From IMG/VR virus record IMGVR_UViG_3300047557_000941, positions 45,152-65,151 of that record: a stretch of 20,000 nt of DNA; one strand, given 5' to 3'. A program made the translations under genes and the position numbers. Origin of the DNA: an uncultured virus (IMG/VR IMGVR_UViG_3300047557_000941). Lineage: Duplodnaviria > Heunggongvirae > Uroviricota > Caudoviricetes > Crassvirales. Below the pieces are notes generated by a model. That model saw only the letters and a program-made list of their open reading frames with translations, had not been told where the DNA came from and did not search any database. This document shows, in pieces, positions 8,138-13,372 of this stretch; within the stretch, counting starts at the first letter, position 1, and every line of letters starts with the position of its first letter.

Positions 8138-9697
8138 ATGATAGTAAAAGAGATCGTCTTCGGAGATGAAGGCAGACAGAAATTAATTAAGGGTGTTAAT
8201 ACAATTGCAAATGCAGTTGGGTCTACACTAGGAGCTCGTGGTCGCACGGTGCTTATTGAGTCGGAGCAACACGTTGGTGGCATTACAGTAACCAAGGATG
8301 GTGTGACCGTCGCTAAGTCAATTAACTTAATGGATCCAGCTGAGAACTTGGCTGTGATGATCATGCGAGAAGCATCTGAGAAGACGGCTAACTCAGCAGG
8401 TGATGGGACGACGACGAGTATGGTGCTGGCACAAGCCATCATCCATTCGGCAATGGGTGTGCTTACACCAGAAGACAATACCACACAAGTATTGCGTGAT
8501 GTGCAGGCTGCAGCACTTAAGGTGGCTGAGGAGCTAACTGCTATGTCAACGGAGATTACATCAGATAAGTTGGTGGACGTGGCGACTATCTCGGCCAATG
8601 GCGATGCGGAGATTGGCAAGATCATTGCTGATGCGTACAATCAAGTTGGCTTAAGTGGTGTAGTGACAGTTGGAGCATCCGAGACATCGGACACATACGC
8701 TGAGGTGGTCAGTGGCATGAAGATAGACAGAGGGTTTGCGAGTAAGTACTTTGTGACAGACCATAAGAAGCAAGAGGCTGTGCTAGACAAGCCATACATC
8801 TTGGTGACTGACCAGCCCATTACAAACCTTAACGACATCTTGCCTATTCTAGAGTTCATCCACCAAGGCAGACATTCATTGCTTATTATTGGGGAGCTCG
8901 ATGAGAACTCACTAAACTCACTTAACGTGAACAAGATTAAGTTGGGTCTAAAAGTAAGCACTATTATTCCTCCGTCATTTGGCTACAAGCGTCATCAGAT
9001 CATGCAGGACATCGCTATTGCGACAGGGGCTAAGTATTTCTCTGAGCAGACAGGTGACAACTTAATGATGGTCACTATTGACGACTGCGGACAAGCAGGC
9101 AAGGTGGTGAGCTCACGGTTCAATACAATTATCTTCGATGCTGTTGGAGCAGGGGATGAGAGAGTGCAAGAGTTGCAAGAGCAGATAGAGGTGGAGATGC
9201 AGGCTGTCGAGAAAGAATTCTTAAAAGAACGCATCGCTAATCTAGGTGGTGGGGTGGCTATCATCAAGGTGGGTGCTAACTCAGACATTGAGCAGAAAGA
9301 GAAGAAGGACCGGGTGGACGATGCGGTGTGTGCAGTACGTGCAGCACTAGAAGAAGGCATCCTTCCAGGTGGTGGCGTGGCGTTAAAAGATATCGCTGCT
9401 ACTATGGACGTGGAGAACAAAGGCACCGAGATATTACAAATGGCGATGCTGGCTCCAATGATCAAGATACTATCCAATGCAGGCATAGATGTGGATGGTG
9501 CAGACTTTGATGAAGGTAAGCAGTTGTCTAAGGGAGGCATAGGGGTGAACGTAGCTACAGGGGCATACTGCCACATGATGAGCGTTGGGATCATTGACCC
9601 GACTAAAGTGTGCAAGGAGGCTCTAAAAAATGCTGTATCTGTTGCAGTAACACTATTATCTACAGAAACTGTCATAACAAATGTACGTCAAATGTAG
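8138..9697 (+). CDS. groEL: phage-encoded chaperonin GroEL (Cpn60)
   Basis: 519 aa with TKDGVTVAKSI, AGDGTTTS, VATISANGD, ERIANLGGGVAIIKVGA, EKKDRVDDA, EEGILPGGG and GIIDPTKV motifs; TAAATTTG -7 element at 8112-8119; no GGM tail. Confidence 0.97.
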   Translation: MIVKEIVFGDEGRQKLIKGVNTIANAVGSTLGARGRTVLIESEQHVGGITVTKDGVTVAKSINLMDPAENLAVMIMREASEKTANSAGDGTTTSMVLAQAIIHSAMGVLTPEDNTTQVLRDVQAAALKVAEELTAMSTEITSDKLVDVATISANGDAEIGKIIADAYNQVGLSGVVTVGASETSDTYAEVVSGMKIDRGFASKYFVTDHKKQEAVLDKPYILVTDQPITNLNDILPILEFIHQGRHSLLIIGELDENSLNSLNVNKIKLGLKVSTIIPPSFGYKRHQIMQDIAIATGAKYFSEQTGDNLMMVTIDDCGQAGKVVSSRFNTIIFDAVGAGDERVQELQEQIEVEMQAVEKEFLKERIANLGGGVAIIKVGANSDIEQKEKKDRVDDAVCAVRAALEEGILPGGGVALKDIAATMDVENKGTEILQMAMLAPMIKILSNAGIDVDGADFDEGKQLSKGGIGVNVATGAYCHMMSVGIIDPTKVCKEALKNAVSVAVTLLSTETVITNVRQM

Positions 9698-9724
9698 ATT
9701 TTATTAATTATATTTGCATATACA

Positions 9725-9813
9725 AATCCGAGTTGGTAATATTGCAGCTTACTAATTCGGATTATCAAGGAAACTTGACCGCCCCCTTCGCTGCAATCGT
9801 TGGGGGTTTTTTT
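9725..9813 (+). ncRNA. structured three-hairpin leader/small RNA with loop-loop complementarity; third hairpin terminator-like
   Basis: 15-bp stem 9725-39/9749-63; TCAAG-GAAA-CTTGA; GCCCCC...GGGGGT plus T7. Loop sequences ATTGCAGC and GCTGCAAT are exact complements. Promoter element TATATTTG at 9709-9716. Confidence 0.6.
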
Positions 9814-9816
9814 ATT

Positions 9817-10320
9817 ATGGAAATTTGGAAACCAATTAAGGGTTATGAAGACTTATATGAAGTCAGTAACCTAGGAAGAGTAAACAGTTTATTCACAAGG
9901 AAAGGTAAAATAATGAAGCCTAAGGTAGAAAGAGATGGATATCTTAGGATAGGATTTTGGAAAGAGGGCAAACAAAAGTATTATAATGTTCATCGATTAG
10001 TAGCAGAAGCATTTTTACTAGAAAAGCAAGATTACCAAAATCAGATAAACCATATTAATAAAATAAAATCCGACAATAGAGTTGAAAATTTAGAATGGGT
10101 ATCTACTATTGAAAATCATTTTCATAAAAATCTAAATAATAATACTAGTAGTAAATATGTTGGAGTTGCTTGGAGCAAAGAAAAAAATAAATGGGCTTCC
10201 TATATAAATTTTAAAAATAAAAAAGTACATTTGGGGGCATTTGACAATGAAGATTTAGCTCATAAGGCAAGAATAGATTTTCAAAATGAAAATAATATAA
10301 TAAACAAGTATCTTAATTGA
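9817..10320 (+). CDS. NUMOD4-HNH-AP2 homing endonuclease
   Basis: Real start ATG 9817. EIWKPIKGYEDLYEVSNLGRV (NUMOD4), VHRLVAEAF...INHINKIKSDNRVENLEW...EN (HNH_3), SKYVGVAW...KW.SYI...VHLGAFDNE..A (AP2). Confidence 0.92.
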   Translation: MEIWKPIKGYEDLYEVSNLGRVNSLFTRKGKIMKPKVERDGYLRIGFWKEGKQKYYNVHRLVAEAFLLEKQDYQNQINHINKIKSDNRVENLEWVSTIENHFHKNLNNNTSSKYVGVAWSKEKNKWASYINFKNKKVHLGAFDNEDLAHKARIDFQNENNIINKYLN

Positions 10321-10659: not shown

Positions 10660-11250
10660 ATGACAAAGACATATTTAATTTATGGACTTAGGTGTCCAAA
10701 GACAGATGACTATAGGTATATAGGCAAAAGTTCAAGTGGTATTAATAGAGCTAAATCACACCTAACCTATTCGCACAATGAATCAGTAAATCACTGGGTT
10801 CTTGAATTAAGAGAAGAAGGATTGGCTCCTTTGGTTGATGTAATTGAACAATGCCAAGAAAGTGAATTAGTTATAAAAGAACATTTTTGGATTCAATATT
10901 ATCAAAGAGTTGGATGTATATTGTTTAACCATATTAAGTACAAAGGCAAAGCGATAGAAGGTCTTGAAAAAGAAGTTGATAAAGAAGAATCTAGACTTAA
11001 TGACAAAATTTCTTTAGTGAGGAATTTAATAAATGGAATGTCCTGTATAAGTGAATTTATTAAATATAGGCGAAAACAATTAAATATTTCACAACAAGAG
11101 TTGGCAGATTTAGCTAAAATATCAAGGGTTACAATACATAATATGGAAAACAAAGATAAAAATTCTACCATATCAAATATAGAAACAGTACTTGATATAT
11201 TGGGATGTGAATTGATGCCTTTAGTTAAAACGCCAAGAGGGAGCTATTAA
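10660..11250 (+). CDS. GIY-YIG-like nuclease fused to a C-terminal XRE/Cro HTH
   Basis: YLIYGL...YRYIGKS...R...H...E.FWI..Y......N (GIY-YIG); IKYRRKQLNISQQELADLAKISRVTIHNME (HTH_3). Confidence 0.8.
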   Translation: MTKTYLIYGLRCPKTDDYRYIGKSSSGINRAKSHLTYSHNESVNHWVLELREEGLAPLVDVIEQCQESELVIKEHFWIQYYQRVGCILFNHIKYKGKAIEGLEKEVDKEESRLNDKISLVRNLINGMSCISEFIKYRRKQLNISQQELADLAKISRVTIHNMENKDKNSTISNIETVLDILGCELMPLVKTPRGSY

Positions 11251-11255
11251 ATAAT

Positions 11256-11502
11256 TTACAAATTCGGAAAAATTCCGAGTTTTGTAACAAATTTTGCCAA
11301 AATACGTTACAAAAATGTTAACTTATAAGTTAACAAATGTTAATAATCCAAACCAATATGGGATGGTAAATGATAATTATCCAAACCGTTACAATTTGGA
11401 ACAGGTTGGAAGTGTGCATTACTAATATACACTATTGACGAAACTTGTAAAAAGTTGCAAGTTCTGATAATAAGGTTAAATAAAATTTACAAATTTGTAA
11501 AT
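11256..11502. repeat. tandem array of non-identical short inverted repeats
   Basis: At least 7 consecutive hairpins/palindromes, including perfect TGTTAACTTATAAGTTAACA (11316-35) and ATTTACAAATTTGTAAAT (11485-11502). Confidence 0.7.
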
Positions 11503-11525
11503 AAATGTAAAATATAATTAATGTT

Positions 11526-11783
11526 ATGAAAGTAATCGGAAAGAATATTCTAATCGTGCCTCAAGAAGAGGAGACAAAGTCCAAGGGCGGCTTAATTATG
11601 ACCGCAATGGATGCAAATGAGCTACGCTACAAGAAAGCAACCGTGGTATCACAAGGCTCGCTAGTAGATGGAATTAAGCCAGGCTCATTTATCTACTTTG
11701 ATCGTGCAGCTGGCCACACCATCCGCATCAATGAGGACCTATATACGGTCATCACAGAGAAAGATGTGGTAGTAGTTCTTTAA
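11526..11783 (+). CDS. groES: co-chaperonin GroES (Cpn10)
   Basis: 85 aa; MKVIGKNILIVP.EEETKSKGGLIM (mobile loop), ATVVSQG, IKPG..IYF, Y.VI.EKDVVVVL. Confidence 0.9.
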   Translation: MKVIGKNILIVPQEEETKSKGGLIMTAMDANELRYKKATVVSQGSLVDGIKPGSFIYFDRAAGHTIRINEDLYTVITEKDVVVVL

Positions 11784-11792
11784 TTAAATAAT

Positions 11793-11918
11793 ATGGAGAA
11801 GAAATCTAAAGGGTTTGCTTTAATTATCCTACCACTAATTGCATTTGAAATGCATGAAGATGGAACAAGGGAACTTATGTTCGGGTGGTTGACACACACT
11901 TGGTGGATAAGATTTTAA
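11793..11918 (+). CDS. small hypothetical protein (41 aa)
   Basis: MEKKSKGFALIILPLIAFEMHEDGTRELMFGWLTHTWWIRF*; directly after groES. Confidence 0.5.
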   Translation: MEKKSKGFALIILPLIAFEMHEDGTRELMFGWLTHTWWIRF

Positions 11919-11924
11919 AATATT

Positions 11925-12106
11925 AGTCAGGTGGCGGAAGGGTCGTATCAGGAGTTCCCGGCCGAAGGTAGACGCAAAAAGCCAACTCGTAGGGTAGTAT
12001 TAAACTATCATAGTGTGGAAGCGAGTCTAAATAAGACAATCCCTGGTTCGTGGCTCGCATTAGCGGCTGGCACCAAGGCTTACAGGTTCGAATCCTGTCC
12101 TGACTA
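11925..12106 (+). ncRNA. tRNA-like RNA 1 (182 nt; D-loop insertion, anticodon arm replaced by ~105 nt)
   Basis: Acceptor AGTCAGG/CCTGACT; D arm GCG-GAA[insert]GGTAGA-CGC; T arm ACAGG-TTCGAAT-CCTGT; no identifiable anticodon; no CCA. Confidence 0.7.
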
Positions 12107-12181
12107 AACTTACCTATCCGAAGGTTATGATGAAGCATTTTGTACCGTATGTTCATAAAGTAGATAGGAACGGTACTAATT

Positions 12182-12253
12182 AGTTAGGTGGGGTAATGGT
12201 AACCTAATTGGCTGAAACGCTCGAAGATACATGTTCGATTCATGTCCTAACTA
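12182..12253 (+). tRNA. tRNA-like RNA 2 / pseudo-tRNA (Phe-GAA-like loop, anticodon stem unpaired)
   Basis: 72 nt; acceptor AGTTAGG/CCTAACT, D arm GGGT-AATGGTA-ACCT, T arm ACATG-TTCGATT-CATGT; loop CTGAAAC at canonical spacing but flanks ATTGG/GCTCG do not pair. Confidence 0.55.
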
Positions 12254-12322
12254 CACTTTTAGTGATGTTGGTTACTATAGCATAGTAACTAAACTAATGA
12301 CTGATGGAAAGACATCAAATTT

Positions 12323-12443
12323 TAGCCTGTAGTGGAATTGGTATACACTATGTGAATTGGTTTGCATCCAATAGGTGTGTTAGCATAATAACAAACATAG
12401 TCGCTGTCACGGTGACTTGCGGGTTCGAATCCCGACTGGCTAC
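12323..12443 (+). ncRNA. tRNA-like RNA 3 (class II scaffold with branched anticodon arm)
   Basis: Acceptor TAGCCTG/CTGGCTA (one T-T mismatch); Leu-like D arm GTGGAATTGGTATACAC; stem TATGT/ACATA enclosing two hairpins; variable arm GTCGCTG/CGGTGAC; T arm CGGG-TTCGAAT-CCCG. Confidence 0.65.
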
Positions 12444-12522
12444 GGAGAGATAGCAATCTTCCAATATGGCATTCAGTCCGTTAATCTGGAGAACTTGCTT
12501 GACAGCTGGAAAGACAGCATTT

Positions 12523-13029
12523 TTAAAAATCTTTATTAAGTCTACCAATGACCCTGTCATATTGCCTTGTGGCAAAGTGATGGGGTTTATTGCTTTTAGG
12601 TTTGATGTCAGATAGCTTTGGAATGGGTCTTTCACCCTGCAACATCTCATAAACCTGTCGCATAATGGACTTAGCTTGGTAAGACAGCTCATAAATCGCA
12701 CGTTTGCCCGGTTCAGGCTTGCGAAAATGCACGATTAAACCTTTCTGCATCAAATCTTGCCGTCTATTTTTAGTAAATCCAAATATTTGGCAGTATTGGT
12801 CGAACTGATTGGCGTCAAAAACGTGCTCGGAGTACAAATAACATAGCATCTCAAAGTCTTCTAGGCTCAATCCGTGCTTATGACGAGCCCAGGCACGTAC
12901 AACTTTGATGTATTTTAGAAAGTCTTTGTCGACAGCCTCACGTCTAACTACGATAGGCTTGACTTTATATTCACGCACTTTAATAGCTCTAGGCTTAATC
13001 TTCCTAGGCTTCATGTATGTTTTTATCAT
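12523..13029 (-). CDS. hypothetical protein, possible winged-helix regulator
   Basis: 168 aa; LSLEDFEMLCYLY...LMQKGLIV...RAIYELS resembles MarR-like wHTH; TAATTTTG element on the minus strand at 13045-13052. Confidence 0.6.
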   Translation of the reverse strand: MIKTYMKPRKIKPRAIKVREYKVKPIVVRREAVDKDFLKYIKVVRAWARHKHGLSLEDFEMLCYLYSEHVFDANQFDQYCQIFGFTKNRRQDLMQKGLIVHFRKPEPGKRAIYELSYQAKSIMRQVYEMLQGERPIPKLSDIKPKSNKPHHFATRQYDRVIGRLNKDF

Positions 13030-13044
13030 TAGATTTTATTTTTA

Positions 13045-13062
13045 CAAAATTACTTATCTTTG
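13045..13062. promoter_or_regulatory. back-to-back divergent Bacteroidota -7 elements
   Basis: Minus TAATTTTG (13052-13045) and plus TATCTTTG (13055-13062), 2 nt apart. Confidence 0.6.
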
Positions 13063-13081
13063 TTGAATAATAAGAAAAATT

Positions 13082-13372
13082 ATGGCTAAGAAAAATTCAA
13101 TGATTAAGATTGGCGACTTGAAGGGAGTCGTTGGTGGCATGAGAAAAGCAATGACTGAGCGTGAAGACGAGCGTACAATGCTTCAAAAAAACCGCAACTT
13201 AGGACTAGCTCCAGATCAAGATAAGGCTGCTGCATCTCGCATTGCACAATTACGCAAGGAGAACGCATACTATGCACCAATCGCAGAGCGTTACCAAGGA
13301 TTGATCGACTCAAAAACTAAGGGTCGTGATGTACCTCTTCCTTCTTCTTCACAATTATTCAATAAGAAATAA
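13082..13372 (+). CDS. hypothetical protein
   Basis: 96 aa; first gene of the rightward late-like operon. Confidence 0.7.
   Translation: MAKKNSMIKIGDLKGVVGGMRKAMTEREDERTMLQKNRNLGLAPDQDKAAASRIAQLRKENAYYAPIAERYQGLIDSKTKGRDVPLPSSSQLFNKK

What the first reader, a model, noticed from the sequence alone, without database searches (positions are those of the whole stretch)
11925..12519. Cassette of tRNA-scaffolded noncoding RNAs with remodelled anticodon arms
Seen: three consecutive elements (11925-12106, 12182-12253, 12323-12443) keep acceptor stem, D-arm and TTCGA T-arm, but none has a normal anticodon arm or an encoded CCA. Elements 1 and 2 share a scaffold with compensatory changes: acceptor AGTCAGG/CCTGACT vs AGTTAGG/CCTAACT, and T-stem ACAGG/CCTGT vs ACATG/CATGT. 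Pairing therefore appears maintained while the middles differ completely (~105 nt vs ~23 nt). Known: RNase P, RNase Z and the CCA enzyme read the acceptor/T half of tRNA, not the anticodon. Inference: these are not decoders but a phage family of tRNA-shaped carriers, either processing tags that release stable RNA cargo or decoys for host tRNA-targeting defences such as anticodon nucleases or acceptor-end-modifying toxins.
Basis: partly seen in the sequence, partly recalled or inferred. Interest (0 to 1): 0.85.

Follow-up and report, generated by a model that had tools for sequence, protein, structure and literature searches.

The report
Phage tRNA-shaped RNAs with swapped middles
Three neighbouring genes in this freshwater phage keep the upper body of a leucine tRNA but have no decoding arm, and they belong to a very large, apparently undescribed phage family in which the same tRNA body carries hundreds of different middle sections.

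Summary
Window 11925-12106, 12182-12253 and 12323-12443 are three tRNA-shaped elements. All three have an acceptor stem, D arm and TTCGA T arm. None has a canonical anticodon arm or an encoded CCA.

Only element 2 is called a tRNA (Rfam 43 bits), and its anticodon stem is mispaired. The 65-kb crAss-like phage has no other tRNA.

Element 1's T arm plus 3' acceptor (24 bases) recurs exactly in at least 130 IMG/VR stretches. The body is constant and tRNA-Leu-like: AGTCAGG, D arm GGCGGAAT(T)GGTAGACGC, T/A after the D arm, T before the T stem, discriminator A. The middles run from 20 to about 130 nt. 127 elements fall into 110 sequence clusters.

ARAGORN finds no more anticodon arms or "introns" in them than in shuffled middles. 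A D-arm-anchored search found 19 different, fully compensated acceptor stems on long-middle elements. Identical middles sit on different acceptor stems.

A covariance model built without window rows scores E1 at 51.9, E3 at 42.4 and E2 at 40.6 bits. It scores phage T5 RNA1 ("tRNA-like stable RNA with unknown functions") at 42.6.

Most likely these are excised, stable, non-decoding tRNA-like RNAs. Their function is unknown. The scan met tRNA-shaped RNAs before on other DNA, but not this family.

The parts
11526..11783 (+). GroES-like gene, the conserved left flank of the variable slot. A sigma-70-like site lies at 11486-11513.
   Evidence: phrog_3188 co-chaperonin GroES, E 6.9e-13. 27 related loci were found with it. 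Promoter-like match.
11787..11918 (+). 43-aa hydrophobic small ORF, part of the variable cassette
   Evidence: No PHROG match. The upstream DNA 11784-11924 that holds it is 72% identical over 135 nt in L017 and identical in L003. It gave no blastn match in the other 25 of 27 loci.
11925..12106 (+). Element 1: tRNA-Leu-bodied RNA gene with a 106-nt middle and a D-loop insertion
   Evidence: ARAGORN -i. Exact 24-mer family. Scaffold model R1 gives 51.9 bits, E 4.2e-11.
11940..11966 (+). 27-nt hairpin module inserted in the D loop of E1, just before G18G19 (11967-68)
   Evidence: Absent from the 4 other complete rows of alignment A1 (L062, L175, L309, L312). Absent as read from the two partial copies L310 and L311. 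The same module forms the hairpin relic next to the 168-aa gene's stop in L006, L014 and L016-L019. Similar D-loop hairpins occur in L004 and L094.
11976..12081 (+). Middle ('cargo') of E1: hairpin ACTCGT/GCGAGT, then a long arm abutting the T stem. It carries an extra ~22 nt (about 11993-12014) in the first hairpin's loop.
   Evidence: RNAalifold on 5 homologues: 36 pairs, 5 with changes on both sides, all in the long 3' arm.
12107..12181 (+). Spacer with interleaved complementary pairs: CCTATC 12113-18 with GATAGG 12163-68, and GTACCGT 12142-48 with ACGGTAC 12170-76. This is a possible pseudoknot.
   Evidence: 96% identical after an AGTCAGG-type element in L014. Its first ~50 nt are also seen after an element in L068. 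Fold z -0.89. No covariation available.
12182..12253 (+). Element 2: 72-nt tRNA-shaped gene with a mispaired 23-nt anticodon region (12206-12228)
   Evidence: ARAGORN 'Phe AAA'. Rfam tRNA 43 bits with non-standard pairs flagged in the anticodon stem. R1 40.6 bits. Its 3' 24-mer is found only in the near-identical relative.
12254..12322 (+). Spacer with two hairpins: 12259-12297 (11-bp perfect core) and 12302-12317 (TGATG-GAAAGA-CATCA, a member of the TGAC-stem-GAAAGA-stem motif)
   Evidence: Fold z -3.63, 0 of 200 shuffles as stable. The same spacer precedes the E3 homologue in L177-L179, with stem GCTG/CAGC in place of TGATG/CATCA.
12323..12443 (+). Element 3: tRNA-shaped gene with a long variable-arm hairpin and a three-way junction in place of the anticodon arm
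   Evidence: ARAGORN -i. Fold z -1.41. R1 42.4 bits. A homologue is present in three identical contigs, L177-L179.
12501..12519 (+). Second copy of the TGACA-GCTG-GAAAGA-CAGC-A hairpin motif, followed by TTTTT and the stop of the convergent gene
   Evidence: The motif has 48 distinct instances in the fetched loci. Most lie 3-8 nt before a tRNA or scaffold element.
12523..13029 (-). 168-aa gene of unknown function, the conserved right flank of the slot
   Evidence: phrog_17028, E 7.2e-9. 17 related loci.

Best explanation
E1, E2 and E3 are genes for non-decoding, tRNA-shaped small RNAs derived from a phage tRNA-Leu.

The part that builds the L-shaped upper body is kept under selection: 7-bp acceptor stem, 5-bp T stem with a TTCGAAT loop, D stem, G18G19, A14/A15, and the bases flanking the core. 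The anticodon and variable-arm region has become a free slot, and so to a lesser degree has the D loop before G18G19. This slot carries unrelated, fast-turning-over inserts.

Inferred mechanism, none of it shown here:
- The cassette is transcribed rightwards with the GroES gene.
- Host RNase P cuts at the 5' end of each element.
- RNase Z cuts after the discriminator, and CCA is added.
- The products accumulate as stable RNAs, like RNA1 and RNA2 of phage T5.

The tRNA body would then serve as a maturation and stability handle, and possibly as a leucine-accepting handle. Whatever specific activity exists would lie in the middle.

At the DNA level each element behaves as a discrete unit that is gained, lost and exchanged between phages.
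For: Shown:

(1) Anatomy of the three elements.

(2) Family size. It also hits 14 MAG contigs among the GTDB representatives, 5 of them titled as Bacteroidota lineages. That gave 148 copies, 129 with the 5' acceptor and 124 unique.

(3) Constant body. 104 of 122 start AGTCAGGTG. 77 of 122 have a contiguous Leu-type D arm. The base after the D arm is T or A in 93%, and the base before the T stem is T in 85%.

(4) Variable middles. 127 elements fall into 110 clusters.

(5) No hidden decoder. ARAGORN default of 122 real elements against 14-20 with shuffled middles. With introns allowed it against 57-68, spread over 44 anticodons.

(6) RNA-level selection on the helices. In the D-arm-anchored set, 61 long elements carry 19 different acceptor 5' strands. 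On alignment A2, 99.2% of cells pair, 10 of 12 pairs change on both sides, and 0 of 500 shuffles reach this. The same middle sits on different acceptor stems: L205/L206, L287 vs L052/L101, L267 vs L118.

(7) The middles are not junk in every case. The E1 middle has 6 homologues in other contexts, with 5 covarying pairs. GNRA-capped hairpins number 31, against 12.9 expected.

(8) Model R1, built without window rows, hits E1, E3 and E2 and nothing else in the genome. It scores T5 RNA1 at 42.6 bits, above every T5 tRNA. The T5 record annotates rna1 and rna2 as 'tRNA-like stable RNA with unknown functions'.

(9) Elements sit among canonical tRNAs in some phages.

Inferred from the literature: the body keeps what E. 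coli LeuRS needs (A73, A15-U48, G18G19). tRNA-Leu variants lacking the anticodon and variable arms are still leucylated (passages of PMC9976931).
Against: - There is no direct evidence of transcription, of ends or of CCA. Only assembled contigs of RNA libraries were available, and these may contain DNA.
- The elements are dispensable. 7 of 19 close relatives have nothing between the two flanking genes, and 6 carry only or also a hairpin relic of an E1-like element.
- The middles are only mildly structured: mean z is -0.58 over 92 middles, and E1's own middle has z +0.74. No motif is shared across middles.
- E2 is a singleton and could be a decaying tRNA.
- E3 has a T.T mismatch in the acceptor stem and a 4-bp T stem.
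- The rows used for the covariation count were pre-selected. I required at least 6 of 7 acceptor pairs and at least 4 of 5 T-stem pairs, which 102 of 113 copies passed. The paired percentage is therefore inflated.
- The exact-24-mer set cannot show covariation, by design.
Confidence: 0.6

Rival explanations
1. Selfish or relic DNA. The elements are leftovers of tRNA genes disrupted by mobile DNA, such as homing-endonuclease cassettes or small insertable hairpins, or are themselves tRNA-derived mini mobile units. On this reading the constant ends are kept as recombination or recognition sequences and the middles have no RNA function.
For: - Clean presence/absence at one slot among phages whose flanking proteins are 80-100% identical, with precise unit boundaries.
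- Related middles occur in unrelated flanks.
- A hairpin module has been inserted into the D loop of E1, and the same module forms a relic hairpin in relatives.
- L293 is a tRNA-Leu(UAA) with a 44-nt hairpin in its anticodon loop.
- The phage has HNH and endonuclease VII-like genes and a Sak annealing protein.
- Earlier notes of this scan describe nuclease genes and palindromes replacing tRNA arms. These are unchecked leads.
Against: - No nuclease gene lies inside or beside the cassette. The HNH gene is 1.6 kb away, beyond two genes.
- Intact targets are rare. Among the 122 copies examined with the exact 24-mer I saw at most one near-canonical tRNA-Leu, L082.
- Positions that matter only for RNA tertiary folding are conserved (T or A after the D arm, T before the T stem, G18G19, the T loop), and stems change by compensation including G.U.
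- The E1 middle covaries.
Confidence: 0.2
2. Interrupted tRNAs. The middles are introns or removable inserts, and splicing yields ordinary decoding tRNAs.
For:
- A few members look like tRNA-Leu with a weak anticodon stem: L046 and L082, both CAA.
- L293 keeps its anticodon stem and variable arm around a 44-nt hairpin.
Against: - Shuffled middles give 57-68 of 122 such calls, and the 'anticodons' scatter over 44 types.
- The bases next to the D arm and T stem are not those of a shared anticodon stem.
- No Rfam intron or ribozyme family matches any middle in the window or in the 37 loci searched.
- No RNA ligase, RtcB, splicing endonuclease or CCA enzyme was found among 62 of 79 ORFs scanned.
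- One RNA-library contig is collinear with the DNA across E1's middle, 11963-12170.
Confidence: 0.05
3. Decoys or sponges. The tRNA upper halves titrate host factors that inspect the acceptor/T half. Candidates are acceptor-end-modifying toxins, tRNA nucleases, and LeuRS, EF-Tu or the CCA enzyme. The middles vary because they are unconstrained or under pressure to avoid recognition.
For: - Strict conservation of exactly the half read by such factors, with free variation elsewhere.
- Several copies per phage in some genomes, for example 6 within about 4 kb (19.3-22.4 kb) of one contig.
- The Leu-type identity set is retained.
- The FaRel2 paper (PMC11559606), of which I saw only the listing and the start of the abstract, shows toxins that read acceptor stems.
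Against: - Nothing computed here addresses binding.
- Some middles are conserved and covary, which a pure decoy does not need.
- No defence or counter-defence gene is linked.
- The elements are absent from many close relatives.
Confidence: 0.15
4. mRNA punctuation. The tRNA shapes are processing signals that cut polycistronic transcripts between genes, as in mitochondria, and the released RNA is a by-product.
For: - Many copies sit in short gaps between co-directional genes. A stop codon lies about 10 nt upstream and an ATG 15-25 nt downstream.
- The unit boundaries coincide with the tRNA ends.
Against: - In this window the cassette lies between convergent genes with no gene downstream.
- Three units in tandem, and up to six elsewhere, are more than punctuation needs.
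- Punctuation gives no reason for long or covarying middles.
Confidence: 0.1

Closest known systems
Phage T5 RNA1, RNA2 and RNA3. GenBank AY543070 annotates rna1 and rna2 as 'tRNA-like stable RNA with unknown functions' and rna3 as 'putative tRNA-like RNA'.
   Same: These are phage genes with a tRNA acceptor/T half and an enlarged middle. RNA1 has the same Leu-type D arm core (GGAATTGGTAGAC) and scores 42.6 bits on my scaffold model, above all T5 tRNAs. RNA2 ends in GCAGG-TTCGAAT-CCTGT.
   Different: The T5 RNAs lie inside a 20-plus-tRNA cluster of a coliphage and are single conserved genes. Here the genome has no tRNA at all. The body is one near-invariant sequence shared by many phage contigs (apparently of Bacteroidota hosts), and the middles differ almost copy by copy. 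That the T5 RNAs are stable comes from the record's annotation. I read no paper on them.
Phage T4 rnaC and rnaD (species 1 and 2 RNAs)
   Same: These are small stable RNAs of unknown function next to the phage tRNA genes (annotation of AF158101). rnaC carries CCGGG-TTCGAAT-CCCGG and scores 24.1 bits on the scaffold model.
   Different: The match is weaker, there is no Leu-type D arm, and they are single-copy. rnaD did not match the model.
Canonical phage tRNA-Leu genes
   Same: They have the identical D arm GGTGGCGGAATTGGTAGACGC, a 7/5 acceptor/T branch and discriminator A. 36 short elements in the D-arm-anchored set are mostly such genes.
   Different: They have a 5-bp anticodon stem, a CUNNNAA-type loop and a 12-15-nt variable arm, and they score 56-70 bits in Rfam. 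The window elements and their family lack this arm. They score 29-43 bits or nothing.
Engineered 'tRNA scaffold' RNAs, and the C4 antisense RNA of P1/P7 cut out by RNase P
   Same: The design principle is the same: a foreign RNA replaces the anticodon arm and the tRNA body secures processing and stability. For the scaffold method I saw only a search listing and the start of the abstract of PMC3753655.
   Different: The first is man-made. C4 is a single antisense regulator with a known target, and the window's middles show no complementarity to the phage's own genome beyond chance.
tRNA-linked nuclease and palindrome modules of Bacteroidota and phages
   Same: In those cases tRNA arms or loops are replaced by hairpins or nuclease genes. 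E1's D-loop hairpin and its relics resemble those micro-insertions.
   Different: No nuclease gene is attached here. The units are complete tRNA bodies with selected helices, not truncated dead copies.

Membership tests
Canonical tRNA (Rfam RF00005) | 7-bp acceptor stem, 5-bp T stem with a T-loop, and a D arm with GG | tested here: met
   Read directly. E3 has one mismatch in the acceptor stem and one in the T stem.
Canonical tRNA (Rfam RF00005) | 5-bp anticodon stem with a 7-nt loop, U33 and a purine at 37, placed one base after the D stem | tested here: not met
   E2: Rfam flags non-standard pairs, and ARAGORN's register has G33.
Canonical tRNA (Rfam RF00005) | Score at or above the curated gathering score of 29 bits | tested here: inconclusive
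   E2 scores 43 bits, which meets the cut-off. E1 has no match even at E<=10. E3 gives only a tRNA-Sec match of 19.9 bits against a cut-off of 47.
tRNA-Leu-bodied long-middle family defined here (model R1) | Matches a covariance model of acceptor, D and T helices built from 34 members, without window rows | tested here: met
   E1 51.9 bits, E3 42.4 bits, E2 40.6 bits. There is no other hit in the 65-kb genome. The model also hits ordinary tRNAs, so it shows shape, not exclusivity.
tRNA-Leu-bodied long-middle family defined here (model R1) | Leu-type D arm GGCGGAAT(T)GGTAGACGC, and the master ends AGTCAGG...ACAGGTTCGAATCCTGTCCTGACT | tested here: inconclusive
   E1 meets both, with its D arm split by a 27-nt insert. 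E2 has related ends with two compensated changes but a type-I D arm. E3 has different ends and D arm.
T5 RNA1/RNA2-type tRNA-like stable RNAs | Accumulates as a stable, discrete small RNA in infected cells | not testable with these tools
   Only contigs of RNA libraries were available.
T5 RNA1/RNA2-type tRNA-like stable RNAs | Lies within a phage tRNA gene cluster | tested here: not met
   This genome has no canonical tRNA. Family members in other phages do lie among tRNAs.
Intron-bearing tRNA (group I or other self-splicing insert) | The insert matches a known intron or ribozyme family, or its removal restores a canonical anticodon arm | tested here: not met
   No Rfam match to any middle. 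Shuffle control.
tmRNA / Y RNA-like (YrlA) | Detected by ARAGORN tmRNA search or by Rfam YrlA | tested here: not met
   ARAGORN found no tmRNA. There is no YrlA match in the window. One weak YrlA match of 26 bits against a cut-off of 69 occurred in L069.
Leucine-accepting tRNA-like RNA | A73, A15-U48, G18G19 and an intact D/T-loop elbow, which are the E. coli LeuRS determinants (PMC9976931, passages) | tested here: inconclusive
   At sequence level E1 has all of them. Discriminator A occurs in 48 of 61 long elements, and T precedes the T stem in 85%. E3 has discriminator C. Charging itself cannot be tested here, and the host's LeuRS rules are unknown.

The most novel reading that the evidence does not exclude
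Phages of freshwater Bacteroidota use one near-invariant, anticodon-less tRNA-Leu body as a universal handle. It would be cut out by RNase P and RNase Z, given CCA and, because it keeps A73, A15-U48 and G18G19, charged with leucine. Onto this handle they graft hundreds of different RNA middles. The units would be exchanged between phages as cassettes by recombination at the constant ends. That would amount to a natural RNA display system. Its cargos could act as aptamers, sponges or regulators against host functions, or the leucylated acceptor end could feed or block a non-ribosomal use of Leu-tRNA.
Probability: 0.25. Interest if true: 0.85.

Novelty: new variant of a known kind. Interest (0 to 1): 0.72.

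Why it matters
Phage tRNA-like stable RNAs appear in the T4 and T5 genome records as a handful of genes annotated with no known function.

This window leads to a family that is orders of magnitude larger. It has a striking design: one constant leucine-tRNA body and an almost copy-specific middle.

The family offers a natural comparative data set for asking what the upper half of a tRNA is used for when decoding is removed. Candidates are processing, CCA addition, leucylation, EF-Tu binding and toxin recognition.

It may also explain many 'pseudo' or 'undetermined' tRNA calls in viral metagenomes. It gives concrete, short constructs for bench tests. If the middles prove functional, it is a ready-made natural scaffold for RNA expression in Bacteroidota.

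Tried and rejected
(1) Cultured phages.
- blastn of 11500-13100 against 50,697 phage records gave no match at E<=1e-5.
- An 87-nt family member at E<=1 gave 194 records, but 0 covered 80% or more. Only single tRNA halves matched. I therefore know of no isolate that carries the family.

(2) This scan's own notes.
- Look-ups by sequence for E1 and for L169 found no look-alike.
- No notes exist on this genome.

(3) Antisense idea. The longest exact matches of the three middles and two spacers to the phage's own 65 kb, on either strand, are 9-12 nt. Shuffles give a mean of 10-12 nt. Rejected for self-targets. Host targets were not testable.

(4) A motif shared among middles. k-mer enrichment returned only leftover D-arm words.

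(5) Known RNA families in the middles. None was found in the window or in 37 loci.

(6) RNA evidence.
- Four RNA-library runs were laid, all as contigs.
- The joints found (for example 11943 to 12079-12082, 11993 to 12233 with 86 other letters, and 11783 to 12317) join the shared scaffold ends or replace cassette content. I read them as other family copies and strain variants, not splicing.
- Parts without cover and depth figures were not used.

(7) Sigma-70 promoter and terminator scan of 11200-13200. There were 8 promoter-like sites against 6.6 expected and no terminator. This was uninformative apart from the site before GroES.

(8) Phage-encoded RNA repair or splicing enzymes. None was found in 62 of 79 ORFs. 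17 short ORFs were not scanned.

(9) Literature.
- The exact scaffold strings occur in 0 papers.
- Four term searches found no description of this family. A fifth was badly targeted and returned unrelated papers.
- Passages of PMC10690425 mention tRNA-like candidates in viruses only in general terms. Its supplementary tables were not opened and might list members.

The ungapped 21-mer was used instead.
Full report
**What is in the window.** The 20-kb window is the right end of a 65,151-bp IMG/VR phage record rated complete. Its proteins include a crAss-type muzzle domain, a BT4734-like primase, ribonucleotide reductase, a Sak annealing protein, GroEL and GroES, an HNH endonuclease and an M15 endolysin. 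It is therefore a crAss-like phage, probably of a Bacteroidota host. Public runs that hold the stretch are labelled freshwater.

The finding lies between a GroES-like gene (11526-11783, +) and a convergent 168-aa gene of unknown function (12523-13029, -).
- E1, 11925-12106
- E2, 12182-12253
- E3, 12323-12443

Each has a 7-bp acceptor stem, a D arm with GG, and a 5-bp T stem closing a TTCGAAT or TTCGATT loop. None has CCA. The two compensatory differences between E1 and E2 are real.

ARAGORN default and Rfam recognise only E2. Rfam gives 43 bits and flags mispairs in the anticodon stem. The 65-kb genome has no other tRNA.

**The slot is hypervariable.** Using the two flanking proteins I fetched 27 and 17 related loci. 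Nineteen loci hold both genes, and their flanking proteins are 80-100% identical in nearly all of them. The space between the genes ranges from overlapping stop codons to 739 nt. It is empty, or at most 4 nt, in 7 loci: L002, L009, L010, L012, L013, L020 and L021.

Eight loci carry tRNA-shaped units: L003 (identical to the window), L004, L005, L007, L008, L014, L016 and L017. Most of these units share E1's ends but have completely different middles. Six loci carry a short hairpin relic: L006, L014 and L016-L019. The relic is AGTC(A)GGTGGC...GCCACCTGACT, capped by the same module that sits in E1's D loop. Small ORFs also come and go in this slot. The units are therefore discrete, dispensable and exchangeable.

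**A very large family.** Several copies often share one contig. They also occur in 14 MAG contigs among 185,579 species representatives, 5 of them titled as Bacteroidota lineages, and never as an evident host tRNA.

Of 148 copies, 129 have the matching 5' acceptor within 300 nt and 124 are unique, at 53-181 nt. The body is nearly constant:
- AGTCAGGTG starts 104 of 122.
- A contiguous Leu-type D arm, GGCGGAAT(T)GGTAGACGC, is present in 77 of 122.
- The base after the D arm is T or A in 93%.
- The base before the T stem is T in 85%.

The middles are almost all different: 127 elements, including the window's three, fall into 110 clusters. In some phages the units are interspersed with canonical tRNAs. 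No Rfam family other than tRNA matches them.

**Not hidden decoders.** ARAGORN of 122 family members as tRNAs, against 14-20 when the middles are shuffled. With introns allowed it, against 57-68 for shuffles, and gives 44 different anticodons. So the 'intron' calls for E1 and E3 carry no weight. A few members look like tRNA-Leu with a weakened anticodon stem (L046, L082). This fits descent from a phage tRNA-Leu.

**The helices are under RNA-level selection.** The 24-mer search fixes the ends by design, so I also searched with the D arm alone. That gave 113 copies, of which 102 close into an acceptor plus T arm under my filter. 97 are unique: 36 short ones, mostly canonical tRNA-Leu genes, and 61 long ones carrying 19 different acceptor 5' strands.

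On an alignment of 27 of these plus the three window elements, 99.2% of cells pair and 10 of 12 pairs show changes on both sides. None of 500 shuffles and none of six slid registers comes near this. The caveat is that my filter required near-complete pairing, so the percentage is inflated. The diversity of fully matched stems is the real signal.

More telling, the same middle occurs on different acceptor stems:
- L205 and L206: GGATAGG against GCTTTGG
- L287 against L052 and L101: AATCAGG against AGTCAGG
- L267 against L118: TGTCAGG against AGTCAGG

**Anatomy of the three elements.** E1's middle has homologues in six other contexts: L062, L175 and L309-L312. All of them lack two pieces that E1 has. 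One is a 27-nt hairpin in the D loop just before G18G19 (11940-11966). The other is about 22 nt in the loop of the first hairpin (about 11993-12014). The shared core is a 6-bp hairpin followed by a long arm abutting the T stem, where a type-II variable arm would be. That arm has 5 covarying pairs.

E2 has normal tRNA length, but its 23-nt anticodon region pairs poorly in either register. It has no relatives beyond the identical phage.

E3 has a long variable-arm hairpin and a three-way junction in place of the anticodon arm. One branch of the junction looks like an anticodon stem-loop with UGC. It recurs with few changes in three identical contigs.

**Independent membership test, and the nearest known thing.** I built a covariance model from 34 family members, with no window rows and only the acceptor, D and T helices specified. 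It scores E1 at 51.9 bits, E3 at 42.4 and E2 at 40.6, and finds nothing else in the genome.

The same model scores phage T5 RNA1 at 42.6 bits, higher than any T5 tRNA. It scores T4 rnaC at 24.1 bits. The T5 record annotates rna1 and rna2 as 'tRNA-like stable RNA with unknown functions', and the T4 record annotates rnaC and rnaD as small stable RNAs. T5 RNA1 even shares the Leu-type D-arm core. Phage tRNA-like stable RNAs are thus a known, unexplained kind. What is new here is the scale and the pattern of constant body with variable middle.

**How it most likely works.** The following steps are inferred, not shown:
- The cassette is transcribed with GroES. A promoter-like site lies at 11486-11513.
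- RNase P and RNase Z, which read the acceptor/T half and elbow (established knowledge), release each unit.
- CCA is added.

The conserved positions are those that build the tRNA elbow. They are also those that E. coli LeuRS uses: A73, A15-U48 and G18G19. According to passages of PMC9976931, tRNA-Leu variants without the anticodon and variable arms are still leucylated. Charging with leucine is therefore a concrete possibility for E1 and E2 (discriminator A), and less so for E3 (discriminator C). What the middles do is unknown:
- They are only mildly structured overall (mean z -0.58), though GNRA-capped hairpins are enriched, 31 against 12.9 expected.
- They share no motif.
- The window's middles are not antisense to the phage itself.

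**Rivals.** I weighed four.
- A selfish or relic DNA reading explains the presence/absence pattern, the relics and the insertable hairpins. It does not explain the conservation of RNA-tertiary positions, the compensated stems, or the rarity of uninterrupted targets.
- Splicing to canonical tRNAs is not supported.
- A decoy role and an mRNA-punctuation role remain open sub-hypotheses about function.

**Expression data.** Only assembled contigs of four RNA libraries could be laid. One 208-nt contig, 100% identical, runs collinear with the DNA from 11963 to 12170. The library may contain DNA, and contigs cannot show ends.

**Literature and limits.** The scaffold strings occur in no paper of the library. 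Four term searches returned no description of this family, and a fifth was off target. I did not open the supplements of the one large survey of viral structured RNAs (PMC10690425, passages only). Earlier notes of this scan describe other tRNA-shaped phage RNAs, and nuclease or palindrome insertions in tRNA genes. Those notes led me to check T5 and T4, and I verified that lead. By sequence look-up, none of the notes concerns this family. No cultured phage in the collection carries both halves of the scaffold.

Noticed in passing
window 12299-12319 and 12501-12519; loci L016, L017, L056, L070, L076, L081, L104, L130, L171, L177, L185, L186 and others: This is a conserved hairpin motif: TGAC(A/G), a 4-5-bp stem, a GAAAGA loop, the complementary stem, then (C)AA. 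Stem versions seen include GCTCG, GCTTG, GCCCG, GCTG, TGATG, CCTCG and GCACG. There are 48 distinct instances in the fetched loci. Most lie 3-8 nt upstream of a tRNA or a scaffold element, and some stand alone before a T run. It might be a phage promoter, a processing signal or a terminator. I could not tell which.
   Followed up: partly
window 12107-12181: The spacer after E1 is 96% conserved after an AGTCAGG-type element in L014, and its start also follows one in L068. It contains two interleaved complementary pairs (12113-18 with 12163-68, and 12142-48 with 12170-76). This is a possible pseudoknot, and the spacer may be an RNA element of its own.
   Followed up: partly
window 11940-11966; L006, L014, L016-L019 next to the stop of the 168-aa gene; L004 and L094 D loops: A hairpin module (GGGT..GGGG/CCC..GGCC type) is insertable. 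It sits in the D loop of E1 and of other elements, and it caps an 11-bp relic hairpin that keeps the acceptor strands. It resembles the micro-palindrome insertions in Bacteroidota tRNA loops noted earlier in this scan.
   Followed up: partly
window 8138-9697, 9610-10320 and 11526-11783: The phage encodes GroEL (phrog_5725, E 5e-125) and GroES. The two genes are separated by a NUMOD4+HNH endonuclease gene and an HTH regulator gene. The endonuclease looks like a free-standing homing nuclease lodged within the chaperonin pair.
   Followed up: no
L293:118-246 (-), L246:137-246 (-), L214:63-246 (-): Other oddities turned up among Leu-bodied genes. L293 is a tRNA-Leu(UAA) with a 44-nt hairpin inside the anticodon loop, at the position where plastid and cyanobacterial tRNA-Leu introns sit (that position is recalled). 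L246 is a Leu-bodied tRNA with a GUU loop and a 40-nt variable arm. L214 appears to hold a second tRNA-like unit nested in its middle.
   Followed up: no
window 11783/12523 junction compared with L002, L005: In empty-site relatives the stop codons of the two convergent genes overlap (TTAA). Where an element abuts the 168-aa gene, the element's 3' end CTA supplies that gene's stop codon (TAG).
   Followed up: yes
L182:3890-10234 (+) of the window's genome: A 2,115-aa ORF with no Pfam match lies beside the muzzle-domain gene. It may be the giant virion protein typical of crAss-like phages. I did not examine it.
   Followed up: no
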